A stretch of DNA of 64,000 bases. It comes from Phycisphaerales bacterium (GTDB taxonomy: Bacteria; Planctomycetota; Phycisphaerae; UBA1845; Fen-1342). Location of the stretch: assembly GCA_016716475.1 (NCBI GenBank), contig JADJWG010000004.1, positions 852,725 through 916,724 of the forward strand, written 5' to 3'. This document shows positions 6,666 to 37,056 of this stretch, in pieces; the first letter of the stretch is position 1; the number at the start of each line of letters is the position of its first letter. The notes below the pieces were generated by a model, which worked only from the letters and a program-made list of their open reading frames with translations, was not told the origin of the DNA and did not search any database. The position numbers were made by a program, and so were the translations under genes.

Positions 6666-8220
6666 TTGGAAACTCTTGTCGCCATCCTATGTGTCGTATT
6701 CTTCGCGCTGCTGGTAGCCGTACCTAGTCTGTACGGCTTCCACATGTACCTGCTTCTGTACCTGGCCCATCGGCGCCGTGCGTCGGTACGGGCTGAACAG
6801 CAGGCCTGCATTGCGCACTACCAGCAGTCCGTGCCGGATGAACAGTGGCCGCTGGTCACGACCCAGATCCCCCTCTACAACGAAATCAACGTTGCCCGCC
6901 GCATCATCGAGGCGGCCGCCAGGATGGACTACCCCCATGGTCGGCATGAAGTGCAGGTGCTCGACGACAGCACCGACGGCACGCGCCAGGTTGTGGATCA
7001 CGTCGTTGCCGAGTTGCAGTCGCATGGTTACCACGTCGTTGTCGTTCGTCGCCCGCAGCGCACGGACTACAAGGCCGGAGCGCTCGCCCATGGGTTGCTG
7101 ACCGCGCGTGGGGAGTTCGTAGCAGTCTTCGATGCGGATTTCGTACCCGATCGTGGTTTCCTGCGTCGGATGGTGCCGTTGTTGGTTTCGGACCCGCGGG
7201 CGTGTGCGGTCCAGGGTCGCTGGGGCCACCTCAACGCGCAGGAGACCTGGATTACCTCCGGCCTCGCACTGAGTCTGGACAACCTCTTCGCCATTGAGCA
7301 GGGCGCCCGCGGTTGGAACGGGCTGCTCATGGGCTTCAATGGCACGGGAGGCATGTGGCGTCGTGCCGCGATTGATGACCCCGCCGTCGGTGGTTGGAGC
7401 GGCGACACCATCACGGAAGACCTCGATTTGTCGTACCGCGCGCAACTTGCAGGTTGGCGCATGATTTATTGTGCGGATGAGGTTTCTCCGGCTGAATTGC
7501 CCGCCGATGCCGATGCGGTCAAGAGTCAGCAGCGGCGCTGGGCCGTGGGGACGATCCAGACCGCCCGCAAGCTGTTGCCGGCGGTGTGGCGTTCGCAACT
7601 CCCGCTCGCCGCCAAGGTCGAGGGGACACTGCACCTCCTCCAGTACGGCATCTACCTGCCGATGTTGTGCGTGGCACTACTGGGGCGGTTGCTGCCGCTG
7701 CTGCCGATGATGCTGTTTGACGAGCCCTGGCCGATTTGGCTGAACTCGGTAGGTTTGGTTTTCCTCGGTGCGGCGCTTGGCACCCGTGATTGTCCACATC
7801 TATGCCCGTCGGGCCCTGGGTGGGCGCACACCCGGCTTTGCGGAGATCGTCAAGTTGCTCCTGCTGGGGCTGGGGCTGACCGTCAACAATGCCGTGGCAG
7901 TCGCGACTGGTCTCGTGCAGCGCGGAGGGGAGTTTGTCCGCACGCCGAAGTCCGGCAGCCAGGGGCACAGCCGACCGCGCGGGCGCTACCGGGGCCTGCA
8001 GAGCAAGCTGTGGATTCTCGAGCTCTTGGTCGGCACCTTCTGCTTTGCACAGTGGTGCGTGTTCGTCGACTTCGACGGCCCCGGCAGCATCTTCCTGCTT
8101 CTGTATGCCACGGGGCTCCTGCTGATGGGCTGGCAGTCACGGCCACGTTCCATTCGTGGAAAACCGAAGCGGATACCTGCGACGGCGCCACTCCAGCCGG
8201 GCGGACTCGCCACGGGGTAG
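6666..8220 (+). CDS. Family 2 glycosyltransferase (CslA / beta-glycan synthase-like), interrupted by an apparent 1-nt frameshift near 7781-7790
   Basis: Frame 1 (6666..) carries a GT2 core with DDSTD, DADF, and QQRRWA (QxxRW) motifs. GT2-like sequence stops at ...LGAALGT and becomes featureless. Frame 2 (7768..8220) reads PVIVHIYARRALGGRTPGFAEIVKLL...EFVRTPKSG, a typical GT2 C-terminus. TTG start at 6666; first in-frame ATG is at 6741. Confidence 0.7.
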
Positions 8221-8359: not shown

Positions 8360-9424
8360 TTACAGCCCCGTCATCAGGGCACCGAAGAGCGTCACATCAG
8401 CACCCGTCAAGAAGTCGTCTTCATCCAGGTCGAAGCGGTAGCAGCCGCCGGTGGTGAGGTCTGCGCTCGCGCAAACCTGGAATGCGGCCGCGTCGATCAT
8501 GTCGCGCTTGCCGTTGTAGTCGATATCGCCCCACGGCGTGCCAACACCCGGCGGGAACACATCGATCTCGCGGATGATGGGAGCTTCGATTGCCTTGCGG
8601 AGCCCGTCCACGTCCTCGGGATCCATGTCGCACGAAAGATAGGCGGCATCGGTCTCGTTCGCCGCGCCGTTCCACGGGTCGCGGAAGGCACCCTGGGTAT
8701 TGCTGACGCAATAGAAGACGATCCGCAGATCGGTGCAGCCCTGAACGAGGTACTTGCTATCAAAGTTGTGTAGTTCGGTCAGACTGCCCGCCCACAGCCC
8801 GGTGTTGAAGAGCTGGCCGAATTCGCCCGTCCGCACGCTGGCCGCCACCAAGGTGTAGGTGCCAAGGTCGCCGAGACCATCGGTCGAAGCCCATACGTCA
8901 TAGTGCTGAAACACCCGACCGTCGAGATTGAGGAAGTTACCACCGAGCACACGCAGGTACCCGATGTTGGTCGGAGTCGTGAACCCGAAGCGCACGACCA
9001 GGGAGGCCCGTGCGAAGTCCCGCAGAATGCCGTCGAGCGGTCCATTCGCCAAACCGTCCACGAACACGCCCGGGTGGCCGCCGGCAAACGACGGGCAGCA
9101 GTAGAAGCCGTCGCTCGCCTGGCCGATACCCGGAAACTGATCGTAAAGGCACGGCGCAGAACCTTGATTCATCAGCATCGAGTACACTTCGTTGGTGGCG
9201 TCGATGATGCCGAAGTTGAACGGGTAGGCGCTTTCGTTCAGGATCTGGTTTGAAAGGATGCCCGATTCGGTGGTCGTCGCGAAGCCCTGCACGAGATCGG
9301 TGCTGCTCGGTGGATGCGACAATTGGGCAAAGGTGGGTGCGAGTTCCCATTTGAAGTAAGGGTTGACGTCGGCTTGTGCCGCGCCCACCACCAGCGGTAA
9401 ACAAAGCAGCGCCAGTCGCTTCAT
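8360..9424 (-). CDS. Secreted protein: uncharacterised 'DGRVFQxYDVW...RDPWxG...EIDVF' module plus C-terminal dockerin-like Ca-binding repeat
   Basis: Signal peptide MKRLALLCLPLVVGAAQA. Module shared with 9724..10497 and 21667..23865. C-terminus DIDYNGKRDMIDAAAF...DLDEDDFLTGADVTLF is dockerin-type. Confidence 0.7.
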   Translation of the reverse strand: MKRLALLCLPLVVGAAQADVNPYFKWELAPTFAQLSHPPSSTDLVQGFATTTESGILSNQILNESAYPFNFGIIDATNEVYSMLMNQGSAPCLYDQFPGIGQASDGFYCCPSFAGGHPGVFVDGLANGPLDGILRDFARASLVVRFGFTTPTNIGYLRVLGGNFLNLDGRVFQHYDVWASTDGLGDLGTYTLVAASVRTGEFGQLFNTGLWAGSLTELHNFDSKYLVQGCTDLRIVFYCVSNTQGAFRDPWNGAANETDAAYLSCDMDPEDVDGLRKAIEAPIIREIDVFPPGVGTPWGDIDYNGKRDMIDAAAFQVCASADLTTGGCYRFDLDEDDFLTGADVTLFGALMTGL

Positions 9425-9723
9425 GTGGGTTTCGCTCCTGTTCTCCAAAGTTGCGGGATTTGATCGTGGCTGCCGTCCCCCGCCGCATCGCGGCGAACGT
9501 ACCACGGCTGGTTTCAGTATACTTCGCGCGGTGCGCTGACTGCAAGTCGGAGTATCCTCCGATGCTCACCCTACAATGTCCGAATAATTGACGGATGGCA
9601 CATCAGATTCACCTGCCGATTTAGCGAAACGCTGGTATTACCGCCCGGGCCCCCGTTATACTTGTGCTTGACGGTTACGGGATTTCACGTCTGCTCACCA
9701 TCTTTACGCCTTGGAGGAGAAGA

Positions 9724-10497
9724 ATGTATCGACACTCGCTGAGACTAGGGGCCGGTTGTGCCGCACTACTGTTCGCCTTTTCGGCCACCGCTGCCATCAC
9801 CCACTCGACGCAACACAGCACGGCCGTCAATGGCCTCGACGCACAGATTGCCGCGAATGACATCATCGCCGGCATGATTGGCACGGAACTGCCCGGCGAT
9901 CTCGGTTGGCACCCGGCCAACTCGAATCCTGCCGACCAGTTGCCGGCCCTGACGGACGGCGCGGGCCTGCTGGGCTCCGGCCTCACAGGTCTGCTCAACG
10001 ACTTCCCGGGCGTCGGCACCCCCGCCAAGCTCATCCGTTACGACTTCGCCGCCGCGGACCTCGCCGAGATCCGCATTCTCTCGGGCAACGCCGGCCGCGA
10101 CGGCCGTGTATTCTCGACCACGGTCATCCGCTATTCGAACAATGACGGCCAGAGCTGGGATCTGCTGGGCTATTTCCAGTCGGATCCGTCCGGCACGCTG
10201 AATTCAGGCGGTGGCAACAATTGGGCCTCGACCCTCGTCACGATTTACGACGACGCCAGCCCGACGCTGCTGGCCGGCGCCACGAACCTGATCTTCGAAC
10301 TGTACGCGGTTGACAACACCGGCGGCCAGATGCGTGATCCGTTCGATGGCGTCAATCCGTTCACGGGTGTTGATGATGGCCTGACCGCCGCGTTCGTCTC
10401 TCCGCTGATCTGGGAGATCGACGTGGTTGAGGTGCCGGAACCGGCCGGTCTGCTGCTCCTCACGCTGGTGGGTGCGCTGGCTATTCGCCGCCGCTAG
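9724..10497 (+). CDS. PEP-CTERM-anchored secreted protein carrying the same uncharacterised module
   Basis: Strong RBS GGAGGAG. Signal peptide MYRHSLRLGAGCAALLFAFSATAA. Body has IRYDF...LAEIRILSGNAGRDGRVF...MRDPFDG...IWEIDVV. C-terminus VPEPAGLLLLTLVGALAIRRR is a canonical PEP-CTERM sorting signal. Confidence 0.75.
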   Translation: MYRHSLRLGAGCAALLFAFSATAAITHSTQHSTAVNGLDAQIAANDIIAGMIGTELPGDLGWHPANSNPADQLPALTDGAGLLGSGLTGLLNDFPGVGTPAKLIRYDFAAADLAEIRILSGNAGRDGRVFSTTVIRYSNNDGQSWDLLGYFQSDPSGTLNSGGGNNWASTLVTIYDDASPTLLAGATNLIFELYAVDNTGGQMRDPFDGVNPFTGVDDGLTAAFVSPLIWEIDVVEVPEPAGLLLLTLVGALAIRRR

Positions 10498-10531: not shown

Positions 10532-10568
10532 ACCGCGGGATGGCTTGTCCACCCCGCGGTTTTTCTTT
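10532..10568 (+). terminator. Rho-independent terminator after the PEP-CTERM gene
   Basis: accgcggg-atggcttgtcca-ccccgcggt stem-loop followed by tttttcttt. Located between the stop at 10497 and the next start at 10618. Confidence 0.6.
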
Positions 10569-10617
10569 AGGGTCTCCTACGCGGCCGCACACTCTCTGCG
10601 TGCCCGTGGGAGGACCG

Positions 10618-13230
10618 ATGATGCACAGCCGAATCTCGTGGCGCGCGAACGCGACTTGGATTCACACCAGCTTGCTCTTGATGGCGACGGTGTCCCTGCC
10701 GGGCTGCGTCGTAGTCGCGGGATGGCCGCCGTTCGGACCACCCCGGACGATGGACCTTGACTTCGAGCAGCGCCGGCTCAGCCCCTTCGGCATCCACGGG
10801 CCAAGCTACTCCCACTGGGTCGCCGAGGGCAAGCCGCATCTCTGGGAAGAGGGGACCGCCCGCCTGCGCATCATCCGCGACAGCGGTGCCCGGTGGGTGC
10901 GGCAGGACTTCTGGTGGGCGCAGGTCGAGCCGCAGCCGGGAAGGTGGGAGTGGGCGAACTTCGACCGCGCGGTCGAAAGCTACGAGCGGGCCGGCGTGAA
11001 TGTGCTTGCCATTCTCTGCTACGGTTCCGCGTGGGGTGGCGGTGACAGCCCGACCACGCCGGAAGAGCGCGCGGCCTTCGGTGTTTACGTGCATGAGATG
11101 GTCAAACGCTATCGTGGGCGGATTCACGCCTGGGAAATCTGGAACGAGCCGAACATTCAGCCATTCTGGTCCCCGCGGCCGGACCCGGCACTCTATGCGG
11201 AACTGCTGAAGGTTGCCTACCGCGCGGCGAAAGAGGCGGACCCGAATTGCGTGGTGGTGGGTGGGGTGACCGCCGGTCCGGATGCGGCGTTCGTTGCGGG
11301 AATGTACGCCCATGGCGCCGCTGGCCACTTCGATGTGCTCAGCTACCACAACTACAACCAGCACGCCGACCTCGACACCGAGTGGCCTGCGCTGAAGCGG
11401 CTGCGCGAAATCATGGCCGCGAACGGGGACGCCGAGAAGCCGATCTGGCATACGGAGAACGGCTTCTACACAGGGCCGGTCGGGCTCTCCGAGGAAGACC
11501 AGGCCGCGCGCCTGATGCGCTACTCACTCGGGCTGCTGGGGCTGGGGATCGAGCGGACGTTTCAGCTTACGGTGGCAGACTGGACGGACGATCCGAATTC
11601 CGCTGACCGCAGCGTGTATCGCGGGCTGACGCGCACCGACTACACGCCGAAGCTTGCGCTGCGGGCCTACCAGGTGATGGCAGCGCGAGTGGGAATGCTG
11701 CGGGCGCAGGGTATCTTTCGGCCGGCGCCAGGAGTCACCGGCATCCTGTTCGGCGCGCCCGAGGGGTTTTCCGGCGGCAGCGCCGACACGCTGGTCGTGT
11801 GGCGTGATTGGAGCGCGCCGCGCGCTCCTGCCTGCCTCGTGCTCGGCGTCCCCGTTGTCCTGCTGCAGGATCTGCACGGCGGATGGCGCATCGAGCGGTC
11901 CGACAGCGGCGTGTACGAGATAGAGGTGGGCCGCGAGCCGCTGTACATCCTCGCGCCCGGCGAGACGATTCGGCAATCCGCAACCGCGGTGCGCTGGGAC
12001 GATCCGCTCCGCAGTACGACACCTCGCGATCTGGCAACCCCGTTGCAGGTCACGCTCGACGTGGTGCCGCCGCAGGGTGTGTCGTTCCGGATCGGCACGG
12101 GCGATCCCGACGATCGCGAGAGTTCGGTCGAGATCGCGCGCCTCGTTGTGCCGGCGCCCGGTACGAATCGAGTCTCGCTGAACACGCTGGGCTTCGAGCC
12201 GGGCCGGCACGAGGTGTGGTGGGAGCTTGCTCCACTCGGCGGGGTGGATGCCCTGATCGTTCGCGGGTATCGCGAGCTCGAAGTCCTGCCGCCCGTGCGT
12301 TTTGGCTTTGATCGCTTTCCACAGCTCGATGCGACCGCCCCGGCGGTTCCGGCCTTCGTCGAGTATGCCGGCGCTAAGCCGGCCACCGGCCGGCTGTGGG
12401 TCGAGCTTGATGGGCGGGCGGTTGCCACGCAGCACGAGATCGAACTTACACCCGGCGCGGCGGTGCGAACCGGTGTGCCGCTCGACTTGACCGCGTTCGA
12501 GGCCGGGTTGCCTGCATCGGTGACGCTGCAACTCGAGATCGAGGAGGAGCGGTACACTGTCGCGGCCGAGAAGCGCCTGATCGCGTGTCCGCCAGCGCCG
12601 GGGGCGGTGCGGGTCGACGGCGATCTCTCCGAGTGGCGCGCCCGCCCGCCGCAGATTCGGCCGGAGATGATGCGTTGGGAGTACGTCAACGCCGACGATC
12701 CGCCGGGGCCGGACGACCTGAGCGTAACGGCATGGCTTGCGTGGGACGAGCGTGGCCTGTGGTTCGCGGCCGAGGTGCGCGACGACGTCCTTGTCCTGCC
12801 CCAATCGCGTCATGTCTGGGACTGGGATTCGGTGCAGATCGGGCTCGACTTGGGCAGCGACGCGCAGCCCGCCACGCCCTACGACGGCAACGATCTCGAG
12901 ATTGAGGTCGGGGCCAACGGGGGTGGTCCGACCTGGTGTTACCTCGGCGCGTGCCCGCCCGGCTGGCCGGCCGAGGACCTCTCCGACCGGCTGCAATGTG
13001 CTGTGAAGGTGGACGAAGCGGGCGGCATCCTGACCTACGAAGTCCATGTTCCCGCCGACCTGCTCGTCTCCGTGCTGAAGCTGGAACCGGACACGGTGCT
13101 CGGCTTCTCGTTCCTCGTGAACGACAACGACGGCGCCGGCCGCGCCGGGTGGCAGGAACTCACACCCGGTATCGGGATGGGCAAACAGCCGGAACATTTC
13201 GCGTGGCTATGGCTGCGCCCGGACGAGTAA
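10618..13230 (+). CDS. Glycoside hydrolase (clan GH-A TIM barrel, GH5/GH39-like) with C-terminal CBM9-like module
   Basis: FWWAQVEPQPGRWEW and AWEIWNEPN (catalytic acid/base NEP) motifs. C-terminal DGDLSEWR...WDSVQIGLD resembles CBM9. N-terminal hydrophobic signal. RBS GGGAGGA. Confidence 0.7.
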   Translation: MMHSRISWRANATWIHTSLLLMATVSLPGCVVVAGWPPFGPPRTMDLDFEQRRLSPFGIHGPSYSHWVAEGKPHLWEEGTARLRIIRDSGARWVRQDFWWAQVEPQPGRWEWANFDRAVESYERAGVNVLAILCYGSAWGGGDSPTTPEERAAFGVYVHEMVKRYRGRIHAWEIWNEPNIQPFWSPRPDPALYAELLKVAYRAAKEADPNCVVVGGVTAGPDAAFVAGMYAHGAAGHFDVLSYHNYNQHADLDTEWPALKRLREIMAANGDAEKPIWHTENGFYTGPVGLSEEDQAARLMRYSLGLLGLGIERTFQLTVADWTDDPNSADRSVYRGLTRTDYTPKLALRAYQVMAARVGMLRAQGIFRPAPGVTGILFGAPEGFSGGSADTLVVWRDWSAPRAPACLVLGVPVVLLQDLHGGWRIERSDSGVYEIEVGREPLYILAPGETIRQSATAVRWDDPLRSTTPRDLATPLQVTLDVVPPQGVSFRIGTGDPDDRESSVEIARLVVPAPGTNRVSLNTLGFEPGRHEVWWELAPLGGVDALIVRGYRELEVLPPVRFGFDRFPQLDATAPAVPAFVEYAGAKPATGRLWVELDGRAVATQHEIELTPGAAVRTGVPLDLTAFEAGLPASVTLQLEIEEERYTVAAEKRLIACPPAPGAVRVDGDLSEWRARPPQIRPEMMRWEYVNADDPPGPDDLSVTAWLAWDERGLWFAAEVRDDVLVLPQSRHVWDWDSVQIGLDLGSDAQPATPYDGNDLEIEVGANGGGPTWCYLGACPPGWPAEDLSDRLQCAVKVDEAGGILTYEVHVPADLLVSVLKLEPDTVLGFSFLVNDNDGAGRAGWQELTPGIGMGKQPEHFAWLWLRPDE

Positions 13231-21412: not shown

Positions 21413-21666
21413 GGCGAGACCTCACGCAGGGGAATACCGAACAGCCGTCGCGCATTATGCCGCGGCCTCGGCGGGGGTGCCATGTGGGCGCCATACTGAA
21501 CGCAAGTGTGATCCGTAGGGCGGTACCACGCCGGCGGCCGGCGCTCGATTGCAGTACGGGCATACCCACCGCCGAAAGTGTAAGATAAGGCGATAGGCCT
21601 GCTTGAGCCCCTGCGCGTCGTGCCCGCGGCGGGTAGGTGCTCTGCCCGACCGGGAGAGACCCACCG

Positions 21667-23865
21667 ATGCCGGATGCCCAACTGTGCCGTACCTCGCGAA
21701 GTGGTGCTCTGCGTAACTTCCGGCTCTGCGTGGTTCTCCCGCTGCTCGCTGCCTGTGCCAGCGCCGACCTCCCCTTTGCCGGCGTGAATGCCGGGGCGCC
21801 GATCTGGAACGGCTCCATCCTGCTCGACGATGCGCTCGCTGCCGATATCGCCGGGGCCGGTTGTCGTGCCGTGCGCGTCAACTTCCGCATCGATGGTCAC
21901 GCGACGTGGACCCCGCAGCACCTCGCCAAGTACGACGCGATCATCGCCGCCGCCCGGGCGCGCAACCTCCAGGTGCTCGGCATCATTGCGTATGAATCGC
22001 TGCCCGGCACGCAGGCCCAATGGAACGAGAACTACAACACGACGGGCCTGAACCCCTATGTCTACGCCTTCGCTGAGACCGCCTGGCTCCTCATCAACCG
22101 CTACAAGGACGACGTCAAGCTCTTCGAAATCTGGAACGAGCCCAACTGCTGGTCGGTTCCGCCGGGCTCGAACCCGCTCAACGCGGGTTGCTATTACATC
22201 TGGCCGCGGATCTATGCGAACATCCTCGCCGAAACCTACAAGCGCTGCCTCGCGGGTGGCGGCGCGGACTTCTTCGAGCAGCAGGGGATCGCGCTGGTCA
22301 CGGGCGGGCTCTTCGCCCACGACATCGGCGGCGGTGTGAATTCGGCCATGCCGGACTACATGAACGCCGTCTATGGGCAGTCGGACATCTGGAATGCGTT
22401 CGAGTTGCACTCCGGGCGGCGCTACCCGTGGGATTACTTCGGTTACCACTTCTACATTCAACAAGGCGAAGCGCTGCTGACGTCCCGCCTCGCGGCGTAC
22501 TTCCAGAACGTGCGCTTCTGGAAGAGCTGGTACGGCGACACGACGCCCATCATGGTTACCGAGTTCGGCTGGAACACGCAGGCCGTCAGTGCGGCTTTGC
22601 AGGCCGAGAACCTGACGACCACCTACGACTGGCTGCGGGCGCAGCCGGACGTGGTGGCGGCCTATTGGTACCAGTGGAACGACGGTGATGGCGGGTGGGG
22701 TCTCACGTACAGTCTCGGGAACCCGAAACTGGCGTACTATGCCTTCGCGGCCCAGTGTGGCCAGGTGAACGCTCCCGTGGCGGATTTCACCGCCACGCCC
22801 CTGGTCGGGGCAGCGCCGCTGCCGGTCGTGTTTCGGCATGAAGCTGTGGGGCTGATCGATAGCCACCTGTGGGACTTCGGCGATGGAGCCACAAGCACCG
22901 ACGCTCATCCCACGTACACCTACAACGTACCGGGCAACTACGACGTCACCTTGACCGTCACCGGCCCCGGCGGCGCAGATACGCTCACCCGCCCGGCCTA
23001 TGTGCGAGTAGGCAGCATTGCCGACCTGGATGGCAACGGTGCGGCCGATCTGCACGATGTGGCGAGCTTCGCACTGTGCTACAACGGCGCGGAGCCCACG
23101 ATTCCCGACGGCTGCGCCTGTGAGGATGCCCCACCGCCGGCCCCGGTCGCTACGCATACGCTCGCTCCGACTCTCGCGGCACTGCCGCAGGCGATCTCTG
23201 CGAGCGATCTTCTGCATGGGCGGCTCGGCACGCGCGAGGCCGGAGGTTTTCACGCGGCTACGCCGGGCGGCGAGCAGGGCGGTTTGACAAGTTTGACGGA
23301 CGGCATCGCCGGCAGCGGCGCGCAGGCGGTGCTCGCCGACTACTCCCGGCCGGCGCTGCAGGTACGCTACGACTTTGAGCCCGCCGTGGACCTGGGGGCA
23401 CTCCGCGTATTCAGCGCCAACGCCGATGGCCGCGTTTTCCAGTACTACGACGTCTGGGTCGCAACGGCGGGCACGCCGGGCTGGCTACCGCTCGTGATGG
23501 GTGTCGCGACCGGCGGCTTTGGGCAGGTGAACAGCGGTCAGTTCAGCGCCGGGCTCACCGAGGTCGTGCCTGACGGTCTCGGGCCGCTCGCGACCCGGGT
23601 TGCAGCCCTGCGACTGGTCTTCTACGGTGTTTCGACCGTCGATCCCCCGGGGGTCTTCTGGGATCCGTGGGACGCCAGTGAACCCGAGGATGTCGACGGC
23701 CAGCCCCGCGCCTATGTCGCGCCCATTCTCAAGGAGGTCGATGTCTTTGCGTATGACGGTCCGCCGCTGCTGCGGAATGCGGCCGATCTGAATCGCGACG
23801 GTAGCACTGATCACGCGGATGTCGCGCTGCTGTTCGCGCACCTCACAGGCCCCCACGGCGAGTAA
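21667..23865 (+). CDS. Multidomain secreted glycoside hydrolase: GH-A catalytic domain, PKD domain, dockerin-like, shared DGRVFQYYDVW module, dockerin-like
   Basis: Signal LCVVLPLLAACASA. LFEIWNEPNCW. PKD domain (DFTATP...WDFGDG...YTYNVPGNYDVTLTVTG). ADLDGNGAADLHDVASF and NAADLNRDGSTDHADVALLF dockerin-like loops flank ...VRYDF..LRVFSANADGRVFQYYDVW...DPWDASEPEDVDG...APILKEVDVF. Confidence 0.75.
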   Translation: MPDAQLCRTSRSGALRNFRLCVVLPLLAACASADLPFAGVNAGAPIWNGSILLDDALAADIAGAGCRAVRVNFRIDGHATWTPQHLAKYDAIIAAARARNLQVLGIIAYESLPGTQAQWNENYNTTGLNPYVYAFAETAWLLINRYKDDVKLFEIWNEPNCWSVPPGSNPLNAGCYYIWPRIYANILAETYKRCLAGGGADFFEQQGIALVTGGLFAHDIGGGVNSAMPDYMNAVYGQSDIWNAFELHSGRRYPWDYFGYHFYIQQGEALLTSRLAAYFQNVRFWKSWYGDTTPIMVTEFGWNTQAVSAALQAENLTTTYDWLRAQPDVVAAYWYQWNDGDGGWGLTYSLGNPKLAYYAFAAQCGQVNAPVADFTATPLVGAAPLPVVFRHEAVGLIDSHLWDFGDGATSTDAHPTYTYNVPGNYDVTLTVTGPGGADTLTRPAYVRVGSIADLDGNGAADLHDVASFALCYNGAEPTIPDGCACEDAPPPAPVATHTLAPTLAALPQAISASDLLHGRLGTREAGGFHAATPGGEQGGLTSLTDGIAGSGAQAVLADYSRPALQVRYDFEPAVDLGALRVFSANADGRVFQYYDVWVATAGTPGWLPLVMGVATGGFGQVNSGQFSAGLTEVVPDGLGPLATRVAALRLVFYGVSTVDPPGVFWDPWDASEPEDVDGQPRAYVAPILKEVDVFAYDGPPLLRNAADLNRDGSTDHADVALLFAHLTGPHGE

Positions 23866-23956
23866 GCCCGAACCGAACGGGCGTGGCGTTGTGTTCGCTC
23901 TCGCCGGGTCCACCGTTTATCCTGCGGTTGGAAACGCATCTCGGCTGGAGCCCACC

Positions 23957-25825
23957 ATGTCGCCTGCACCTCTCGTTGTTCCTCCCGGCGTGGCGCGCGT
24001 CGTACTGCTGGTTCTGCTTGGTGGCTGTGCCGGTCGCGCAACGGCACAGGCCGGTCCCGAGTCGCAACCCGCGGCCACCGAGATTCGCCTGCGCTTCAAC
24101 GAGCGCATTCCCATGCGCGATGGCATTACGCTGTCGGCCACACTCTACGGTCCCGCTGACCCGGCTGCACCGCCGCGGCCGGTGATTTGCACGCTCACGC
24201 CCTACATCGCCGACAACTATCACCCCTGGGCCTTGCACTTTGCGAAGAACGGTTATGCCTTCGCCGCCGTCGACCTGCGTGGCCGCGGCAACTCCGGCGG
24301 TACGTTTGAACCGTTCGTCCACGATCCGGCCGATGGCCACGACGTGGTCGAGTGGCTCGCAGAACAGCCCTGGTGCGATGGCCGCGTCGCACTCTGGGGC
24401 TCGTCCTACATGGGCTTCAACCAGTGGGCCACGCTGCGGGCGGCGCCACGCCACCTTGCCACGATCCTGCCCGTGGCCGCAGCTTATCCCGGCATCGATT
24501 TTCCCATCTTCAAGAACATCTCGTCACCTTACAACATCCGCTGGCTCACGATGACGAGTGGCGTGACGATGAACAACGACATCAGCGGCGATGCGGAGCA
24601 CTACTGGATCTCCCGCCTCACCGCCTTCTACCGCGCACACCGCCCGTTCCGCGAACTGGACAGCTTCATCGGCAACCCGTCCGTGAATTTCCAGCGCTGG
24701 GTCGCGCATCCGACTACGGGGCCCTACTGGGACGCCACCGTCCCCGCTGCCGATCACTTCGCTGCGATCGATCTGCCGATCCTCACCATCACCGGTCACT
24801 ACGACGCCGATCAATGGGGGGCGCTCGAGTTCTACCGCCGCCACATGGCGCACGGCCCGCCCGCGGCGACCGCCCGCCACTACCTCATCATCGGGCCTTG
24901 GGACCATGGTGGCTGTGTCAACCCGCGGGCGGAGTTCAAGGGGCTCGCCTTTGGGGCGGCCGCGGTGATCGACATGCGCGCCCTGCAATTGGCGTGGTAC
25001 GACTGGACGCTGCGTGACGGTCCGCGCCCGGAGCTGCTGAGTCACCGCGTCGCCTACTATGTCCCGGGTTCCGGTGCGGAGTGCTGGCGCCACGCGGACT
25101 CGCTGGCCCACGTCACCGCGGGGATGCAGCCGTGGTTTCTGCAGGCCGCGCCCGCGCCGCGACACGAGCTCTTCCGGTCCGGCACACTGAGTCCCGCGCC
25201 ACCCCCGGGCGACGCTGCGCCATCCGAGTACACCTATGACCCTCTCGACATTACGCCCGCTGAGTTTGAGCAGACGCCACGACCCAACACGATCACGGAT
25301 CAGTCGGTGGTCTACACACTCGGCGGTCGCGGCGTCATCTTTCACACGCCACCCCTTGACGCGCCGCTGGAATTGGCCGGCGTCCCGCGGCTGACCGTCT
25401 GGATCGAACTCGATGTCCCCGACACGGACTTCGTCGCTACTCTCTCCGAGTTACTGCCCGATGGCACGAGCGTCATGCTCAGTAGCGACTCGCTGCGGGC
25501 CCGCTATCGGGACTCGCCCACGGCCGAGGAACTCGTCCAACCCGGGCGCGTCGAACGCTACACCTTCGACCAGTTCAATTTCTTCGCCCGGCGGGTGCAG
25601 CGTGGCAGCCGCTTGCGACTGGTCCTGCACGCGCCGAACTCGATCTTCGCCCAAAAGAACTACAACTCCGGCGGGGTGGTGGCCGACGAGACCGCCGCCG
25701 ATGCCCGGACAGCCCGCGTGCGGGTTTACCACGACTCCCGGTACCCGAGTGTGCTCGAATTGCCATTGGGGCACGCCGCGGACTCCATCGCCGCCCGCGC
25801 GAACAGCGAACAACCTTTGCCGTAA
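23957..25825 (+). CDS. CocE/NonD family hydrolase (S15 X-Pro dipeptidyl-peptidase-like alpha/beta hydrolase)
   Basis: Signal MSPAPLVVPPGVARVVLLVLLGGCAG. GSSYMG nucleophile elbow. Overall architecture resembles the CocE/NonD family, including the C-terminal beta-sandwich region. Confidence 0.8.
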   Translation: MSPAPLVVPPGVARVVLLVLLGGCAGRATAQAGPESQPAATEIRLRFNERIPMRDGITLSATLYGPADPAAPPRPVICTLTPYIADNYHPWALHFAKNGYAFAAVDLRGRGNSGGTFEPFVHDPADGHDVVEWLAEQPWCDGRVALWGSSYMGFNQWATLRAAPRHLATILPVAAAYPGIDFPIFKNISSPYNIRWLTMTSGVTMNNDISGDAEHYWISRLTAFYRAHRPFRELDSFIGNPSVNFQRWVAHPTTGPYWDATVPAADHFAAIDLPILTITGHYDADQWGALEFYRRHMAHGPPAATARHYLIIGPWDHGGCVNPRAEFKGLAFGAAAVIDMRALQLAWYDWTLRDGPRPELLSHRVAYYVPGSGAECWRHADSLAHVTAGMQPWFLQAAPAPRHELFRSGTLSPAPPPGDAAPSEYTYDPLDITPAEFEQTPRPNTITDQSVVYTLGGRGVIFHTPPLDAPLELAGVPRLTVWIELDVPDTDFVATLSELLPDGTSVMLSSDSLRARYRDSPTAEELVQPGRVERYTFDQFNFFARRVQRGSRLRLVLHAPNSIFAQKNYNSGGVVADETAADARTARVRVYHDSRYPSVLELPLGHAADSIAARANSEQPLP

Positions 25826-25899: not shown

Positions 25900-26560
25900 T
25901 AGACCGCTGGAGGTCCGCATGCAGCACCCCGCACAGTCCGATCTGCTGGCCGGCCGCCCGGCTGCTTTCGAGTCTGGCGATGTGGACCCCGCCCACGGTG
26001 TGGCGGCATTCGAATTCGACGCCGACACGTGCCTCACACTGCGGCCGGTCCGCCCCGTGCTCGGCTTCTAGCACGGCTATGCCGCCTCGGGGCCCGCGAA
26101 GCACCTGCCGGCTCTCACCAATGGAAGTGCTGCTGATGGTGGTGTACTGCGTGACTTCGCGCGCGCCGCGGCTGCACGTCGCTATGACTTCAACCGGCCT
26201 ACCGACCTGCGCGAGCTTGCGGTCTTCGTCACCAATCCGGCGCGCGACGGACGCGTCTTTCAATACTACGACGTGTCTGTCCGTATGGCGGCCGCGATGG
26301 ACTTGACCCCACTGATTCTTGGTGTTCGTGTCGGCCGCCAAGGGCAAAGAATCCCGGCCTGTACAGTGCCTGTCGGACACGCGTGTATGCGCCCGAGGTC
26401 GGTGTGCGGGCCGAGAACGTAACCGAGATTTGGTTCGTGTTCGATGCGACGCACGTCGGCGATGCGTTCTGCGCCTTTGATCGCACACCGCGCGACGGTG
26501 CTGTGGATCTGCACGATTTTGCAGCAGCACAGCGGGCGGCCGGCCCGGATATGCCGTCGA
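25900..26560 (+). pseudogene. Decayed paralog fragment of the dockerin / DGRVFQYYDV module
   Basis: Reads ..SDLLAGRPAA...PVLGF-stop-...TNGSAADGGVLRDFARAAAARRYDFNRPTDLRELAVFVTNPARDGRVFQYYDVSVRMAAAMDLTPLILGVRVG.. with an in-frame TAG near 26070. Frame changes follow, then a dockerin-like remnant RTPRDGAVDLHDFAAAQRAAG near 26500. No start codon or signal peptide. Confidence 0.5.
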
Positions 26561-26586: not shown

Positions 26587-27714
26587 CTATGGGCACTGGC
26601 TGACGCACGCAGCCGGCGGATTCTTGAGCAGCGCAATGAACGGCGAGATGTCCGCGAAGCTCACCACGCCGTCGCCATTCGCATCGCTGTTCAGGTAGGG
26701 TCCGTAACCCGCGTCCAGGTCACAAGTCCAGTTGGCATCACTCCCGGCCTTGAGCGCCGCAATGAACGGCGAGATATCGGCGAAATCCACAACCGTATCG
26801 CCGTTTGCATCGCCGGGACAAGCGGCCGGTGGTGTTGGGACTGGAATCCACGCTACGTGGCGAAACGTCCAGCTCGCGCTCGCCACCACGACCTCATAGA
26901 CACCGGTCGTCGGATCGAGCACTCCGACCGTGCCGCCGCTGGCGCCGGCGGTCGTACCGGCCGCGCAGTACAGGATGCGGCCGTTGCCAAGTTCCCAGAC
27001 CCCCCGCACACCGAGGTTGCCGACATCGTAGAAGTTGAGCTGGGTCCCGGTGGCATCGAACTCGTAGATTCCGCGCACCGCACTGAAGCCCGCGACGTAG
27101 AGATTTCCGTTGCCCCGGGCGTAGACCTGCTGCGGAAAGCGTAGGGCGCTGGTGGCTGCGTTGTGAAACGGCGGGAGCGGGGCTCCGGCGAGTGTGAAAC
27201 GTTCCAGGTTATGGTCATTTGAATCCGGCACGAGCACATCATGCTCGCGAAAGAGAACATAGTAGGGGCTCGCGATGATTCCGCTTGCGAACGTGCTCTG
27301 CCCCGTGCCGTCGAGCTCGAAGCGCTGCACAGTTCCGCTGTGGGGGCCGGCCGCCACGGTCACGTAGAGCTGCCCGTCGTGCAGCGCGATGCCGCGGAGG
27401 TTCTGAATTCCATGGTTCGGCTGGTCGACGATGCGGCCCAGGTACGTGCCATCATAGGCATACTCGAAAACCGCATTCGCAGTCTGGTCACTGATAAGGA
27501 TCGTGCCACGCCCGCTGTCGATCGGCGTGTGCGGCGTTCGCAGGTTCTCGGTGTCCACGATGAACGCGTCGTCGACGAGTGCCCCATCGAAGGGATCGAA
27601 CGCCCACACCGCGCGCAGGGCCGAGTTGGGGATCACCAGCAGTCCTTCGCCCCCCGCTGTCCCCACCCACGCGCACGCTAGTGCGATTACCAATCCGAGT
27701 CGTCCCGCCTTCAT
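26587..27714 (-). CDS. Secreted beta-propeller-like (NHL/SGL-type repeat) protein with two C-terminal dockerin-like repeats
   Basis: Signal MKAGRLGLVIALACAWVGTAGG. C-terminus has two copies of GDANGDTVVDFADISPFIAALKAG. Confidence 0.7.
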   Translation of the reverse strand: MKAGRLGLVIALACAWVGTAGGEGLLVIPNSALRAVWAFDPFDGALVDDAFIVDTENLRTPHTPIDSGRGTILISDQTANAVFEYAYDGTYLGRIVDQPNHGIQNLRGIALHDGQLYVTVAAGPHSGTVQRFELDGTGQSTFASGIIASPYYVLFREHDVLVPDSNDHNLERFTLAGAPLPPFHNAATSALRFPQQVYARGNGNLYVAGFSAVRGIYEFDATGTQLNFYDVGNLGVRGVWELGNGRILYCAAGTTAGASGGTVGVLDPTTGVYEVVVASASWTFRHVAWIPVPTPPAACPGDANGDTVVDFADISPFIAALKAGSDANWTCDLDAGYGPYLNSDANGDGVVSFADISPFIALLKNPPAACVSQCP

Positions 27715-27881: not shown

Positions 27882-28039
27882 GGAACTGGAGGATGGGTGA
27901 TTGGGCGCCGGGTGGGCACCATGCACTATTCTCACATCGTGTCTAAGGATGCCGTGGCAGACCGATAATACAGAAAATCGTGGCGGCGTATCGCTGACGG
28001 GCGGTATCCATAGTGCGACTGCCAATGATGGAGGCACTC

Positions 28040-31349: not shown

Positions 31350-32651
31350 ATGGAACCGCTGATTGCGATTGGGTTCATCACGCTCGCCGTGGCGGTGATT
31401 GCGCTGGTCATCATTGCCAAGCTCATCGTCGTCGGCAATCCCGATGAGTTGCTGGTCATCAGCGGCAGCCGCGGGCGTGAGGACCTCGGTTATCGCACGC
31501 TCATCGGCGGTCGCACGCTGGTCATCCCGGTCATCAACCGCGTCAGCCGCCTGAGTCTGCGCAACATGCAGGTCGCCATCGAGGTCAAGGCGCAGAGCGG
31601 CGGTGGACGCATGGTGCCGGTGATCGTGACCGGAGTAGCCAATGTGAAGATCTCGTCGTCCCCGGCCGAGCGCGCCGCGGCCATCGAGCGTTTCCTCGGC
31701 CAGCACACCGAGCAGCTCCAGCGTGTCGCCCGTGAGACCCTTGAGGGCGGTCTGCGGGCCGTGATCGGTAAGATGACGCCGGAGGAGATCGTCGAAGATC
31801 GCGACAAGTTCGTCGCCACCGTCATGGCCGAGGTGCATGACGACTATCGCAAGCTGGGTCTCCAGATTGATAGCGTCAACATCCAGAACGTGCATGATGA
31901 GGAGGAGTACCTCGTCTCCATTTCACGCAAGGCCCGCGCGCAGGTCCTTGCCGATGCCCGCATGGCCGAAGCGCTGCGCGCTGCCGAGGCGGTCCAGACC
32001 GAAGCGGAAGCCAATGCCGCCGCCCGCAAGGCGAAGGCGGATCGCGATGCCGAGGCCCGGCTGGTCGAAGCCCAGTCGCGGCAGCGGGCCGAGCAGGCCC
32101 GTCTCGCCGCGGAGAAAGCCGTGGCCGAAGCGGAGAACGACCTGCGTATGCGCAAGGCCGAGCTCTCGCGTGACGCGGCCCACAAGGAAGCGGAGCAGCA
32201 GAAGGCCGAAGCCGAGGCCGAGCGCGCCCGCCTTGACGCGACGGAGGTAGCCCGGGCACTGGCGGCCCGCGACGTGGCCCAGGCCAAGGCCCAGGGTGAC
32301 GCCGCCAAGACGGCCGAAGAGGGCAAGGCCCGCGCAGCCGCGATTGAGCAGATCGGCCTTGCCATCCAGAAACACCCCGACGCGTTGAAGGTCATGCTGG
32401 TCGAGATGATGCCGGCCATCGTCCAGGAAATGGCGAAGTCCGTGCAGAACATCGACCTCGGTAACGTGACGGTGATTGACGGCGGCAATGGGCAGGGTGT
32501 GGCCGGTGCGGCCCTGAGCCGAGCCCGGGTGCTGTCGGAGTCGCTGGCGACGATCGAGTCGGTGCTGGGTGTGGACTTGCGGCAGGTGTCACAAGGCATC
32601 GCACGGAACATTGCCGGTGAACCTTCTCATGCGCCGCAGCCGCGGGCGTAG
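31350..32651 (+). CDS. Flotillin-like SPFH/band-7 protein (FloT/YuaG-like)
   Basis: N-terminal TM, SPFH core, then long Ala/Glu-rich coiled-coil (flotillin domain). Confidence 0.85.
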   Translation: MEPLIAIGFITLAVAVIALVIIAKLIVVGNPDELLVISGSRGREDLGYRTLIGGRTLVIPVINRVSRLSLRNMQVAIEVKAQSGGGRMVPVIVTGVANVKISSSPAERAAAIERFLGQHTEQLQRVARETLEGGLRAVIGKMTPEEIVEDRDKFVATVMAEVHDDYRKLGLQIDSVNIQNVHDEEEYLVSISRKARAQVLADARMAEALRAAEAVQTEAEANAAARKAKADRDAEARLVEAQSRQRAEQARLAAEKAVAEAENDLRMRKAELSRDAAHKEAEQQKAEAEAERARLDATEVARALAARDVAQAKAQGDAAKTAEEGKARAAAIEQIGLAIQKHPDALKVMLVEMMPAIVQEMAKSVQNIDLGNVTVIDGGNGQGVAGAALSRARVLSESLATIESVLGVDLRQVSQGIARNIAGEPSHAPQPRA

Positions 32652-36793: not shown

Positions 36794-37054
36794 GTGTCCA
36801 TGTTGCGGCTCTTCGCGTTTCCAACCATCTTCGTCGTCCTGTTCACGCTCGGTCTGCTGCTGATCGTGGTGGGCCTGATGTTGGGACGTGGTCGGTGCGT
36901 TCGCCGGCCGATGTTGCCGGTAGCGCCGCGGCCCGCGGAGCGCGTCTGTCCGGCATGCAGGCATGTGAACGTGGAAGCGGCGCGGTTTTGCGGCCACTGT
37001 GGGCATGGCCTTGTGGTGGATGATTCCTCGACTGACTCACGAAAAGGAGATTGA
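36794..37054 (+). CDS. Small membrane protein with C-terminal zinc ribbon (CPAC...CGHC)
   Basis: RBS GGAGAGGG. One TM helix. Stop overlaps the start region of the next gene. Confidence 0.5.
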   Translation: MSMLRLFAFPTIFVVLFTLGLLLIVVGLMLGRGRCVRRPMLPVAPRPAERVCPACRHVNVEAARFCGHCGHGLVVDDSSTDSRKGD

Positions 37055-37056
37055 AT

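What the first reader, a model, noticed from the sequence alone, without database searches (positions are those of the whole stretch)
8360..10497. Divergent paralogs sharing an uncharacterised secreted module but ending in different surface anchors (dockerin-like vs PEP-CTERM)
Genes 8360-9424 (minus) and 9724-10497 (plus) are transcribed divergently from a 300-bp region. Both encode signal-peptide proteins containing the same module of about 170 aa: (I/V)RYDF..L..LR(V/I)..N...DGRVF(Q)(Y)YDVW ... (L/I)R(L/I)(V/I)FY.V..T.G..RDP(W/F).G ... AP(I/L)..EIDV(F/V). One ends in a dockerin-type Ca-binding repeat; the other ends in VPEP-TM-RRR (PEP-CTERM, exosortase substrate). A third copy is embedded between two dockerin-like repeats at the C-terminus of the GH/PKD enzyme at 21667-23865, and a decayed fourth copy lies at 25900-26560. 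A single conserved module with swappable C-terminal sorting/anchoring signals behaves like a 'choice-of-anchor' domain. I could not assign it to any named family from sequence alone.
Basis: seen in the sequence. Interest (0 to 1): 0.7.

Follow-up and report, generated by a model that had tools for sequence, protein, structure and literature searches.

The report
Unnamed discoidin-like module with swappable tails
Three secreted proteins (plus one dead copy) in this planctomycete genome share a previously unnamed sugar-binding-type domain that carries different C-terminal sorting tails; it belongs to a gene cluster conserved across Planctomycetota, so it is a new family of a familiar kind, not a new kind of system.

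Summary
Genes A (8360-9424, minus), B (9724-10497, plus) and C (21637-23865, plus) share a module of about 210 aa (BLASTP E 4e-11 to 1e-27). A decayed fourth copy lies at about 25922-26454.

The sequence family is compact: 282 clusters at 50% identity among 1.84 billion proteins. It sits mostly in Planctomycetota and Verrucomicrobiota, and B orthologues are 55-69% identical.

In 25 of 29 well-flanked loci a second module gene lies beside the B-type gene. Often a clan GH-A glycosidase carrying the module (C-type) and a pilin-like gene are there too.

Tails vary across the family: PEP-CTERM, dockerin-like, both together, and others. A's tail does not match any dockerin model.

Most likely these are cell-surface glycan-binding modules working with the co-encoded hydrolase. 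The ligand is unknown. I rate it a new member of a known kind, of moderate interest.

The parts
8360..9424 (-). Gene A (354 aa): Sec signal peptide, module with an insertion of about 70 aa, then a 64-aa Asp/Cys-rich tail. It equals the database protein IPM18_17560 of a Phycisphaerales MAG.
   Evidence: ORF and translation. Exact hit P0001. BLASTP to B and C. AGGAG upstream of the ATG at 9424.
8555..9358 (-). Module of A (aa 23-290). It includes a lineage-specific insertion at aa 49-119 (nt 9068-9280).
   Evidence: Family HMM hit of 221 bits on the 381-aa ORF 8360-9505, at ORF residues 28-323; the aa 23-290 bounds are my estimate from the alignments. The AF2 core is confident, while the insertion and tail have pLDDT below 50. 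The insertion is conserved in A-type homologues at 53-59% identity.
8363..8554 (-). Tail of A: ...PWGDIDYNGKRDMIDAAAFQVC...GGCYRFDLDEDDFLTGADVTLFGALMTGL. It has two EF-hand-like Asp loops and a Cys pair. It resembles a dockerin but is not shown to be one.
   Evidence: The consensus is conserved in about 10 homologues. A's tail has no Pfam or NCBIfam hit. One homologue's tail gives Dockerin_1 at 14.3 bits, below the cut-off of 22.9.
9425..9723 (.). 299-bp divergent intergenic spacer between A and B.
   Evidence: Sequence read. No sigma-70 consensus match; planctomycete promoters are not covered by that scan. In related genomes such as L001 and L012 a pilin-like gene sits between the two genes, but here it is absent.
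9724..10497 (+). Gene B (257 aa): signal peptide (aa 1-24), module (aa 27-236, nt 9802-10431), PEP-CTERM (aa 237-257, nt 10432-10494). It belongs to a highly conserved orthologue group.
21637..23865 (+). Gene C (the start is probably the ATG at 21667). It has a lipobox-like LLAAC, a clan GH-A catalytic domain (aa 45-377, nt 21769-22767), a PKD domain (aa 379-458), a dockerin-like stretch, the module (aa 493-710, nt 23113-23766), and a dockerin-like half-repeat (aa 713-736).
   Evidence: Pfam: PKD_4 at 5e-15, Cellulase at 28.8 bits, Dockerin_1 at 14.8 bits. The module scores 202 bits. The GH domain is 46-54% identical to genes next to B-type genes in about 20 other loci. The NEP and TEFG catalytic motifs are read from the sequence.
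25922..26454 (+). Decayed fourth copy (pseudogene). The first half of the module contains an in-frame stop. The rest is frame-shifted and partly deleted, followed by a remnant of an Asp-rich tail up to about 26530.
   Evidence: tblastn E 2e-12. Frame translations. HMM 54.8 bits over positions 14-133, then 2.3 bits in another frame.
10540..13230 (+). Context: a PslG-like (GH39-type) glycosidase with a C-terminal CBM9, immediately downstream of B.
   Evidence: PDB PslG 5bx9 at E 3e-19. CBM9_1 at 3e-9. Syntenic only in the close relatives L001, L006 and L012.
6666..8220 (+). Context: a BcsA-like processive family-2 glycosyltransferase, with an apparent frameshift near 7720-7780.
   Evidence: Pfam GT2 families. 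PDB BcsA 4hg6 at E 1.6e-20. The GC3 frame switches at that point. It is not found next to the module genes in other loci.

Best explanation
The shared module is a divergent discoidin-type (F5/8 type C, CBM32-like, galactose-binding-domain-like) beta-sandwich. It most likely acts as an extracytoplasmic glycan-binding unit.

The genome deploys it in three formats. These are the local version of a gene cluster conserved in Planctomycetota:
- B: the module alone behind a signal peptide, ending in PEP-CTERM. It is presumably cleaved by an exosortase and retained at the cell surface or in the matrix.
- A: a diverged module with an insertion and an Asp/Cys-rich, probably Ca-binding tail.
- C: the module fused, in the position of a carbohydrate-binding module, to a clan GH-A glycosidase that itself has a lipoprotein-type N-terminus.

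Together they would capture one polysaccharide at the cell surface and cut it.

Shown: paralogy, fold, signal and tail motifs, fusion to a glycosidase, conserved synteny, and taxonomic spread.

Inferred: carbohydrate binding, the ligand, Ca dependence, processing by an exosortase, and surface location.
For: Paralogy: BLASTP E 4e-11 to 1e-27.

Fold:
- The AF2 model of B has pLDDT 93.2 and pTM 0.87.
- 50 of 71 family members hit PF00754 weakly. Where the matched region was reported (three relatives), it was the same core, profile positions about 30-88.
- The layout reads like an F5/8 type C domain (my reading, from general knowledge of the family): LTDG near the N-terminus, then VxYDL...I.I, then S.DG..W, then E.DV at the C-terminus.

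CBM-like placement: the module follows a catalytic domain with intact NEP and TEFG motifs in C. The same domain architecture, a clan GH-A domain followed by the module, occurs in the long module genes of many other loci, while the GH domain itself is found beside B-type genes in about 20 loci. Elsewhere the module is fused to VanY, Golvesin_C, Ig or a canonical F5/8 type C domain.

Synteny: of 29 loci with at least 4 kb of flank on each side, 25 have a second module gene within 3 kb, 12 have the C-type GH within 6 kb, 16 have a pilin-like gene within 3 kb, and 11 have all three.

Sorting signals: TIGR02595 passes in B. 59 of 71 members match the Pfam PEP-CTERM model (PF07589) and 55 of 71 match TIGR02595. 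PEP-CTERM proteins are proposed to be exported surface or matrix proteins (PMC1569441).
Against: - No binding data exist, and no ligand can be read from the sequence.
- The family profile does not reach canonical F5/8 type C proteins. It finds only 282 clusters in 1.84 billion.
- PF00754 is never reached at its gathering score among the scores I saw (about 21 bits against 28.2).
- B orthologues are unusually conserved for a CBM or a PEP-CTERM protein (55-69% identity across classes and in Verrucomicrobiota). This could point to a conserved protein partner.
- No exosortase or cohesin was seen in the window ORFs scanned.
- The GH family, and therefore the substrate, is unassigned.
Confidence: 0.55

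Rival explanations
1. Self-matrix reading. The modules bind the cell's own exopolysaccharide. B and A would be matrix or floc-type proteins that organise a polymer made by the neighbouring BcsA-like synthase and trimmed by the PslG-like hydrolase, as proposed for PEP-CTERM proteins in floc-forming bacteria.
For: - In this window A and B are flanked by a BcsA-like GT2 (E 1.6e-20 to 4hg6) and a PslG-like GH39 (E 3e-19 to 5bx9).
- PEP-CTERM systems are linked to exopolysaccharide loci (PMC1569441).
- PEP-CTERM proteins are required for floc formation in Zoogloea (abstract of PMC9012009).
Against: - The GT2 gene is not found next to module genes in any of the 52 other loci.
- The PslG-like gene is syntenic only in three close relatives.
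- The GT2 gene looks frameshifted here.
- The partner that is conserved across loci is a different clan GH-A enzyme.
Confidence: 0.2
2. Protein-assembly reading. The module is mainly a protein-protein interaction domain (as in the IFT25, DOC or SUN members of the fold). It would assemble the paralogues, the glycosidase and the adjacent pilin-like protein into a surface fibre or complex. Carbohydrate contact, if any, would be secondary.
For: - B is very strongly conserved.
- A specific orthologue group of prepilin-type N-methyl/DUF1559 proteins (50-70% identical to one another) lies within 3 kb in 16 of 29 loci.
Against: - The window itself has no pilin-like gene (no tblastn hit), and neither does L006, yet both keep A and B.
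- The module is fused to enzymes in the position of a CBM.
- Most high-scoring structural neighbours are CBM32 or F5/8 type C domains of glycosidases.
Confidence: 0.15
3. Artefact reading. The similarity is chance or compositional in a 66% GC genome, or the ORFs are not genes.
For: High-GC genomes give many long spurious ORFs.
Against: - E-values reach 1e-27 with compositional adjustment.
- There are hundreds of homologues in other genomes.
- GC3 is 0.75-0.81 in the called frames.
- Ribosome-binding sites are present.
- The structure model is confident.
Confidence: 0.01

Closest known systems
F5/8 type C (discoidin) domains, CAZy CBM32, galactose-binding-domain-like superfamily (Pfam PF00754 / PF22633)
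   Different: Only 9-15% identical to solved members. Never reaches the Pfam gathering score where scores were reported. A family profile does not retrieve canonical discoidin proteins (282 clusters only). It has a long conserved Asp/Gly-rich loop (VDNTGGQMRDPFDGVNPFTGVDDGL) before the last strand. No ligand is known.
PEP-CTERM / exosortase substrates (TIGR02595; Haft et al. 2006, PMC1569441)
   Same: B has a signal peptide, then VPEP, a hydrophobic helix and RRR at the extreme C-terminus. The host phylum is known to carry the system.
   Different: PEP-CTERM proteins are described as highly diverse, with little homology between species (PMC1569441). The B family is instead 55-69% identical across Planctomycetota classes and in Verrucomicrobiota. 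The exosortase has not been located.
NCBIfam 'choice-of-anchor' domain families
   Same: One extracytoplasmic domain followed by alternative C-terminal sorting or anchoring tails in different proteins and lineages.
   Different: No named choice-of-anchor model, nor any other NCBIfam model, matches the module. The resemblance is in behaviour only.
Dockerin type I modules (PF00404), including the proposed 'planctosome' of Phycisphaerae (PMC6461901)
   Same: Asp-rich D-x-D/N-x-D/N-G loops in pairs at the C-termini of secreted enzymes. Pirellulales orthologues of the C-type gene pass PF00404 (24.3 and 28.6 bits). Several other dockerin-bearing genes lie in the window.
   Different: A's tail has no hit. 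C's last tail scores 20.1 bits for half a dockerin, below the cut-off. The A-type tail has its own conserved Cys pair. No cohesin was seen.
Floc-associated PEP-CTERM proteins (for example PepA, NF033554)
   Same: Small secreted PEP-CTERM proteins associated with polysaccharide genes.
   Different: The matches to those models were not localised, but every NCBIfam family matched by many members is a PEP-CTERM or other C-terminal sorting-signal model, so they probably reflect the tail only. The passenger domains show no detected relationship.

Membership tests
Galactose-binding-domain-like / F5/8 type C superfamily | Distorted beta-jelly-roll (discoidin) fold | tested here: met
Pfam PF00754 F5_F8_type_C (sequence family) | Score at or above the gathering threshold (28.2 bits) | tested here: not met
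   A, B and C have no hit at E of 0.1 or better. 50 of 71 relatives hit weakly, best E 9.5e-6. The bit scores that were reported, about 18-21 bits for three relatives, are below the threshold.
CAZy CBM32 / carbohydrate-binding module | Demonstrated carbohydrate binding by the isolated module | not testable with these tools
   Needs glycan arrays, ITC or affinity gels.
CAZy CBM32 / carbohydrate-binding module | Occurs appended to carbohydrate-active catalytic domains | tested here: met
   C has a GH5-like domain plus the module. The long module genes of many other loci have the same GH-plus-module architecture, and a homologous GH domain lies beside B-type genes in about 20 loci.
PEP-CTERM sorting signal (TIGR02595 / PF07589) | PEP motif, transmembrane helix and basic cluster at the extreme C-terminus, with an N-terminal signal peptide | tested here: met
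   B ends in VPEPAGLLLLTLVGALAIRRR. TIGR02595 scores 16.8 bits against a cut-off of 16. PF07589 scores 14.9 bits, below 20.7. 59 of 71 relatives match the Pfam model.
PEP-CTERM sorting signal (TIGR02595 / PF07589) | A cognate exosortase (EpsH/Xrt) in the same genome | not testable with these tools
   Only the 64-kb window is held. None of the roughly 27 ORFs scanned is an exosortase.
Dockerin type I (PF00404) | Two Ca-binding repeats of about 22 residues matching the model at the gathering score (22.9 bits) | tested here: not met
   A's tail has no hit. C scores 14.8 bits as a whole protein and 20.1 bits for the isolated last tail, covering only half the model. Some Pirellulales orthologues do pass, at 24.3 and 28.6 bits.
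Dockerin type I (PF00404) | A cohesin partner | not testable with these tools
   No cohesin among the window ORFs scanned. A genome-wide search was not possible.
NCBIfam choice-of-anchor families | Match to a named choice-of-anchor model | tested here: not met
   No such hit for A, B or C. In the per-member scan of 71 relatives, none of the 25 most-matched families (of 44 matched) is a choice-of-anchor family.
NCBIfam choice-of-anchor families | The same domain paired with different C-terminal sorting signals | tested here: met
   Tail census of the 150 best-scoring cluster representatives and of 52 loci.

The most novel reading that the evidence does not exclude
The conserved cluster (pilin-like N-methyl/DUF1559 protein, two stand-alone discoidin-like proteins, and a clan GH-A glycosidase carrying the same module) encodes a PVC-specific surface apparatus for polysaccharide capture. 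In this reading the discoidin-like proteins would be the glycan-binding component of the pili-like fibres that bind dextran in planctomycetes. The composition of those fibres is still unknown (PMC5394234).
Probability: 0.08. Interest if true: 0.75.

Novelty: new member of a known kind. Interest (0 to 1): 0.4.

Why it matters
Planctomycetota and Verrucomicrobiota are major degraders of complex polysaccharides, yet most of their secreted proteins have no annotation.

This work defines a compact family that no model library covers. By fold it is a lectin/CBM-type domain. It is conserved to an unusual degree, and it sits in a recurrent cluster with a glycosidase of no assigned family and a specific pilin-like protein. 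That gives three concrete gains:
- Annotation: an HMM for a new CBM-like family, and a definition of the cluster.
- A tractable target: B is a small, single-domain, well-modelled protein suited to ligand discovery.
- A test case for how one passenger domain is routed by PEP-CTERM, by dockerin-like tails, or by both.

It does not reveal a new mechanism. Fold, sorting signals and domain logic are all of known kinds.

Tried and rejected
- Pfam and NCBIfam on A, B and C gave nothing for the module. NCBIfam run on each of the 71 members matched, among its most-matched families, only PEP-CTERM and other C-terminal sorting-signal models.
- A profile of the module against PDB sequences gave no hit even at E of 10.
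- The search for related loci with the mixed alignment A3 failed because no stretch was conserved enough. I repeated it with B-type sequences only.
- Fold search against afdb50 was not available.
- tblastn of B against plasmids gave no match.
- The structure model of A was poor outside the core (pLDDT 64.7), so the insertion and tail could not be interpreted.
- I tested whether the flanking GT2 and PslG-like genes are part of the conserved unit. They are not; only close relatives share the PslG-like gene.
- I tested whether A's tail is a GC-type or type I dockerin. No model matched.
- I tried to assign the C-type GH to a family through a 15-sequence profile against PDB and Pfam. Only weak clan GH-A hits appeared (5jvk, GH1, GH39, GH128, GH5), so it stays unassigned.
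- The sigma-70 promoter scan of the divergent spacer found nothing.
- The three literature searches run for this purpose found no paper on this family; none of them queried the module's own motifs.
Full report
**1. What is in the sequence**

The window is 66% GC. Its proteins A and B are identical to entries from a Phycisphaerales bacterium MAG, on a contig of 986 kb.

- Gene A (8360-9424, minus strand, 354 aa) and gene B (9724-10497, plus strand, 257 aa) diverge from a 299-bp spacer.
- Both called frames have high third-position GC (0.75-0.76).
- Both ATGs have a Shine-Dalgarno-like site upstream.
- Both proteins start with a typical Sec signal peptide (read from the sequence).
- Gene C (21637-23865, plus strand) probably starts at the ATG at 21667. 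It has a lipobox-like LLAAC, a GH5-like domain (Pfam Cellulase, 28.8 bits), a PKD domain (E 5e-15) and weak dockerin signal.

The three proteins share one module. BLASTP gives A-B 4e-11, A-C 1e-27 and B-C 7e-14. The alignment shows about 35 invariant positions spread over roughly 200 columns of ordinary sequence.

It begins at a conserved (S/N)DL(I/L)xG just after the signal peptide. A has an extra insertion of about 70 aa (aa 49-119).

The fourth copy is real and dead:
- tblastn with the C module hits 26072-26347 at E 2e-12.
- A family HMM aligns 25922-26341 at 54.8 bits, over HMM positions 14-133 only, across an in-frame stop.
- The continuation lies in another frame (26350-26454), is barely recognisable, and lacks the C-terminal third.

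**2. What the module is**

No Pfam or NCBIfam model hits the module in A, B or C. A profile of the three copies finds nothing among PDB sequences.

A word-indexed search of 5.8 billion proteins with that profile returned at least 511 relatives. Most are proteins of about 255 aa from Planctomycetota, annotated only as "PEP-CTERM sorting domain-containing protein" or hypothetical.

With a 71-sequence alignment, AlphaFold2 models B at pLDDT 93.2 and pTM 0.87. The structure comparisons agree with each other:
- It also includes other members of the same superfold: IFT25 (12.3), netrin LN, DOC/APC10 and SUN. Identity is 9-15% throughout.
- Foldseek gives the same families at E of about 1e-3 to 1e-4.

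Scanning each of the 71 relatives against Pfam, 50 hit PF00754 (F5/8 type C) weakly, with a best E of 9.5e-6. For the three relatives where the matched region was reported, it was the same core, profile positions about 30-88, at 18-21 bits against a gathering score of 28.2.

So the module is a divergent sequence family inside the galactose-binding-domain-like (discoidin) superfold. It is not a fold without relatives, and it is not a member of the curated Pfam family either.

An exhaustive HMMER search of 1.84 billion cluster representatives with a module-only profile finds just 282 clusters at E of 1e-3 or better (188 at 1e-10, 102 at 1e-30). The family is therefore compact and well separated from canonical discoidin domains.

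**3. Conservation and context**

B-type orthologues are 55-69% identical to B. They occur in Phycisphaerae, Pirellulales, other Planctomycetota, several Verrucomicrobiota MAGs and a few other MAGs. The PEP-CTERM founding paper describes these proteins as diverse and poorly conserved between species (PMC1569441), so this level of conservation is unusual.

I fetched 52 related loci and scanned their ORFs with a family HMM. Among the 29 loci with at least 4 kb of flank on both sides:

| Neighbour of the B-type gene | Loci |
|---|---|
| Second module gene within 3 kb | 25 |
| Homologue of C's glycosidase domain within 6 kb | 12 |
| Prepilin-type N-methyl/DUF1559 gene within 3 kb | 16 |
| All three | 11 |

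- The pilin-like genes belong to specific orthologue groups (50-70% identical within Pirellulales).
- C's catalytic domain (aa 45-377) is 46-54% identical to genes beside B-type genes in about 20 loci.
- In Pirellulales those genes read GH, module, dockerin (PF00404 at 24.3-28.6 bits, above threshold), PEP-CTERM.
- In the closest relative (L001) the order is A-homologue (48% identical, E 3e-80), pilin-like gene, B-homologue, PslG-like GH, C-homologue, all within 8.5 kb.

A, B and C in the window are therefore the local, slightly dispersed version of a conserved cluster. The pilin-like gene is missing here.

Clustering of module sequences gives this picture:
- The three Pirellulales paralogues all carry B-like modules.
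- The A-type module occurs only in the window, L001, L006 and L012.
- The C-type module occurs only in the window and L001.
- A-type and C-type modules are 29-38% identical to B-type modules.

The catalytic domain has the NEP and TEFG motifs of clan GH-A. It cannot be assigned to a GH family. The best PDB profile hit is the uncharacterised 5jvk at 3.5e-8, followed by weak GH1, GH39 and GH128 hits. Pfam gives Cellulase, Glyco_hydro_cc and DUF5722.

**4. The tails**

B ends in VPEP, a hydrophobic helix and RRR. TIGR02595 passes narrowly (16.8 bits against 16) and Pfam PF07589 does not.

Tail census of the 150 best-scoring of the 282 cluster representatives:

| Tail type | Count |
|---|---|
| PEP-CTERM directly after the module | 43 |
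| Dockerin-like plus PEP-CTERM | 7 |
| Asp-rich dockerin-like tail only | about 30 |
| Verrucomicrobial tail of about 75 aa ending ...FFRLRF | 3 |
| Tails of 12-17 aa ending ...DWSLY or similar | about 12 |
| Fragments or other tails | the rest |

Longer family members fuse the module to VanY plus SH3, Golvesin_C, Ig or FlgD-Ig domains, or a canonical F5/8 type C domain.

No named NCBIfam choice-of-anchor model matches.

A's own tail is conserved among A-type homologues: PWGDIDYDxDRDLxDAAAFQxC...NGCFRFDYDxDxxVDxxDLxxF...GPQ. It matches no Pfam or NCBIfam model. Calling it a dockerin rests on two D-x-D-x-(D/N) loops only. C's last tail scores 20.1 bits for half a dockerin, below threshold.

No cohesin or exosortase was found among the window ORFs I scanned. 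The rest of the genome could not be examined. A cohesin/dockerin "planctosome" has been hypothesised for some Phycisphaerae (PMC6461901).

**5. Mechanism**

The best-supported reading (confidence about 0.55) is that the module is a surface-displayed glycan-binding unit. It is used both as a stand-alone lectin-like protein (B, A) and as the binding module of the co-encoded clan GH-A glycosidase (C). The C-terminal tails, and C's lipobox, would set where each protein is held.

- Shown: fold, fusion to a hydrolase, export and sorting motifs, synteny.
- Inferred: carbohydrate binding, the ligand, Ca dependence, exosortase processing, surface location.

There are two serious rivals.

(a) The ligand is the cell's own exopolysaccharide. 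In this window A and B lie between a BcsA-like synthase (E 1.6e-20 to 4hg6) and a PslG-like GH39 with CBM9 (E 3e-19 to 5bx9). PEP-CTERM systems are linked to exopolysaccharide loci (PMC1569441). But neither flanking gene is conserved beyond close relatives, and the synthase appears frameshifted.

(b) The module is mainly a protein-protein adaptor that assembles the paralogues with the pilin-like protein. This is consistent with the protein-binding members among the top structural hits and with B's strong conservation. But it is contradicted by loci, including this one, that lack the pilin-like gene.

**6. Novelty and verdict**

Three literature searches aimed at this question found no paper on the family; none of them queried the module's own motifs. 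No model library I could search covers it.

It is a new sequence family of a very familiar fold, carrying familiar sorting signals, in a gene cluster that has not been described. I rate it "new member of a known kind", interest 0.4.

The most novel reading still open (probability about 0.08) is that the cluster of pilin-like protein, discoidin-like proteins and glycosidase supplies the glycan-binding component of the dextran-binding fibres of planctomycetes, whose composition is unknown (PMC5394234).

Noticed in passing
L001 8444-9343(-); L002 7397-8422(-); and 14 further Pirellulales loci (for example L008 7331-8353, L040 7345-8370): A specific orthologue group of prepilin-type N-methyl/DUF1559 proteins (50-70% identical within Pirellulales, with a second group in Phycisphaerae-type loci) lies directly beside the module genes in 16 of 29 well-flanked loci. 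The window has no such gene.
   Followed up: partly
window 6666-8220 (+): The BcsA-like family-2 glycosyltransferase appears frameshifted. The coding (GC3) signal moves from frame 0 to frame +1 near 7720-7780, and the C-terminal part (...EFVRTPKSG...) reads in the ORF 7768-8220. This is either a sequencing error or a pseudogene.
   Followed up: partly
window 10540-13230 (+): An 896-aa glycosidase most similar to the Psl exopolysaccharide hydrolase PslG (PDB 5bx9, E 3e-19), with a C-terminal CBM9. It is syntenic with B only in L001, L006 and L012.
   Followed up: partly
P0160, P0170, P0174, P0190, P0203, P0240, P0252, P0253, P0259 and others (family representatives): A dozen distant family members end 12-17 residues after the module in a short shared C-terminus: ...(D/E)W(S/T)(L/M)(Y/F), for example ...VPDWTMY and ...GIADWSLY. 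This may be another terminal signal or a structural strand. I could not identify it.
   Followed up: no
L019 9968-10900, L023, L024, L025, L039 (Verrucomicrobiota MAGs): Verrucomicrobial B-type proteins replace PEP-CTERM with an extension of about 75 aa ending ...FFRLRF/YLRLRF. They have no second module gene nearby.
   Followed up: no
window 21742-21756 (C, aa 36-40): C has a lipobox-like LLAAC after a hydrophobic stretch. The glycosidase may therefore be lipid-anchored at its N-terminus, in addition to carrying its Asp-rich tails.
   Followed up: no
window 26587-27714 (-) and 28013-30544 (+): Two more secreted proteins with C-terminal dockerin-type repeats: Dockerin_1 at 16 bits and NF041540 GC-type dockerin at 18.4 bits for the first, and Dockerin_1 at 26.8 bits (above threshold) for the second. 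Proteins with dockerin-like tails are clustered in this region.
   Followed up: no
window 31350-32651, 37051-38727, 38724-40376 (+): Three SPFH/Band 7 (flotillin-like) genes lie within 9 kb.
   Followed up: no
L050 8072-15979 and L051 8105-16138: Giant proteins of about 2,650 aa in uncultured-bacterium MAGs carry one copy of the module (aa ~635-845; 38% identical to B).
   Followed up: no
window 23819-23865: The ORF of the S15 (X-Pro dipeptidyl-peptidase family) gene 23819-25825 overlaps the end of C by 47 nt. Its true start is probably further downstream.
   Followed up: no
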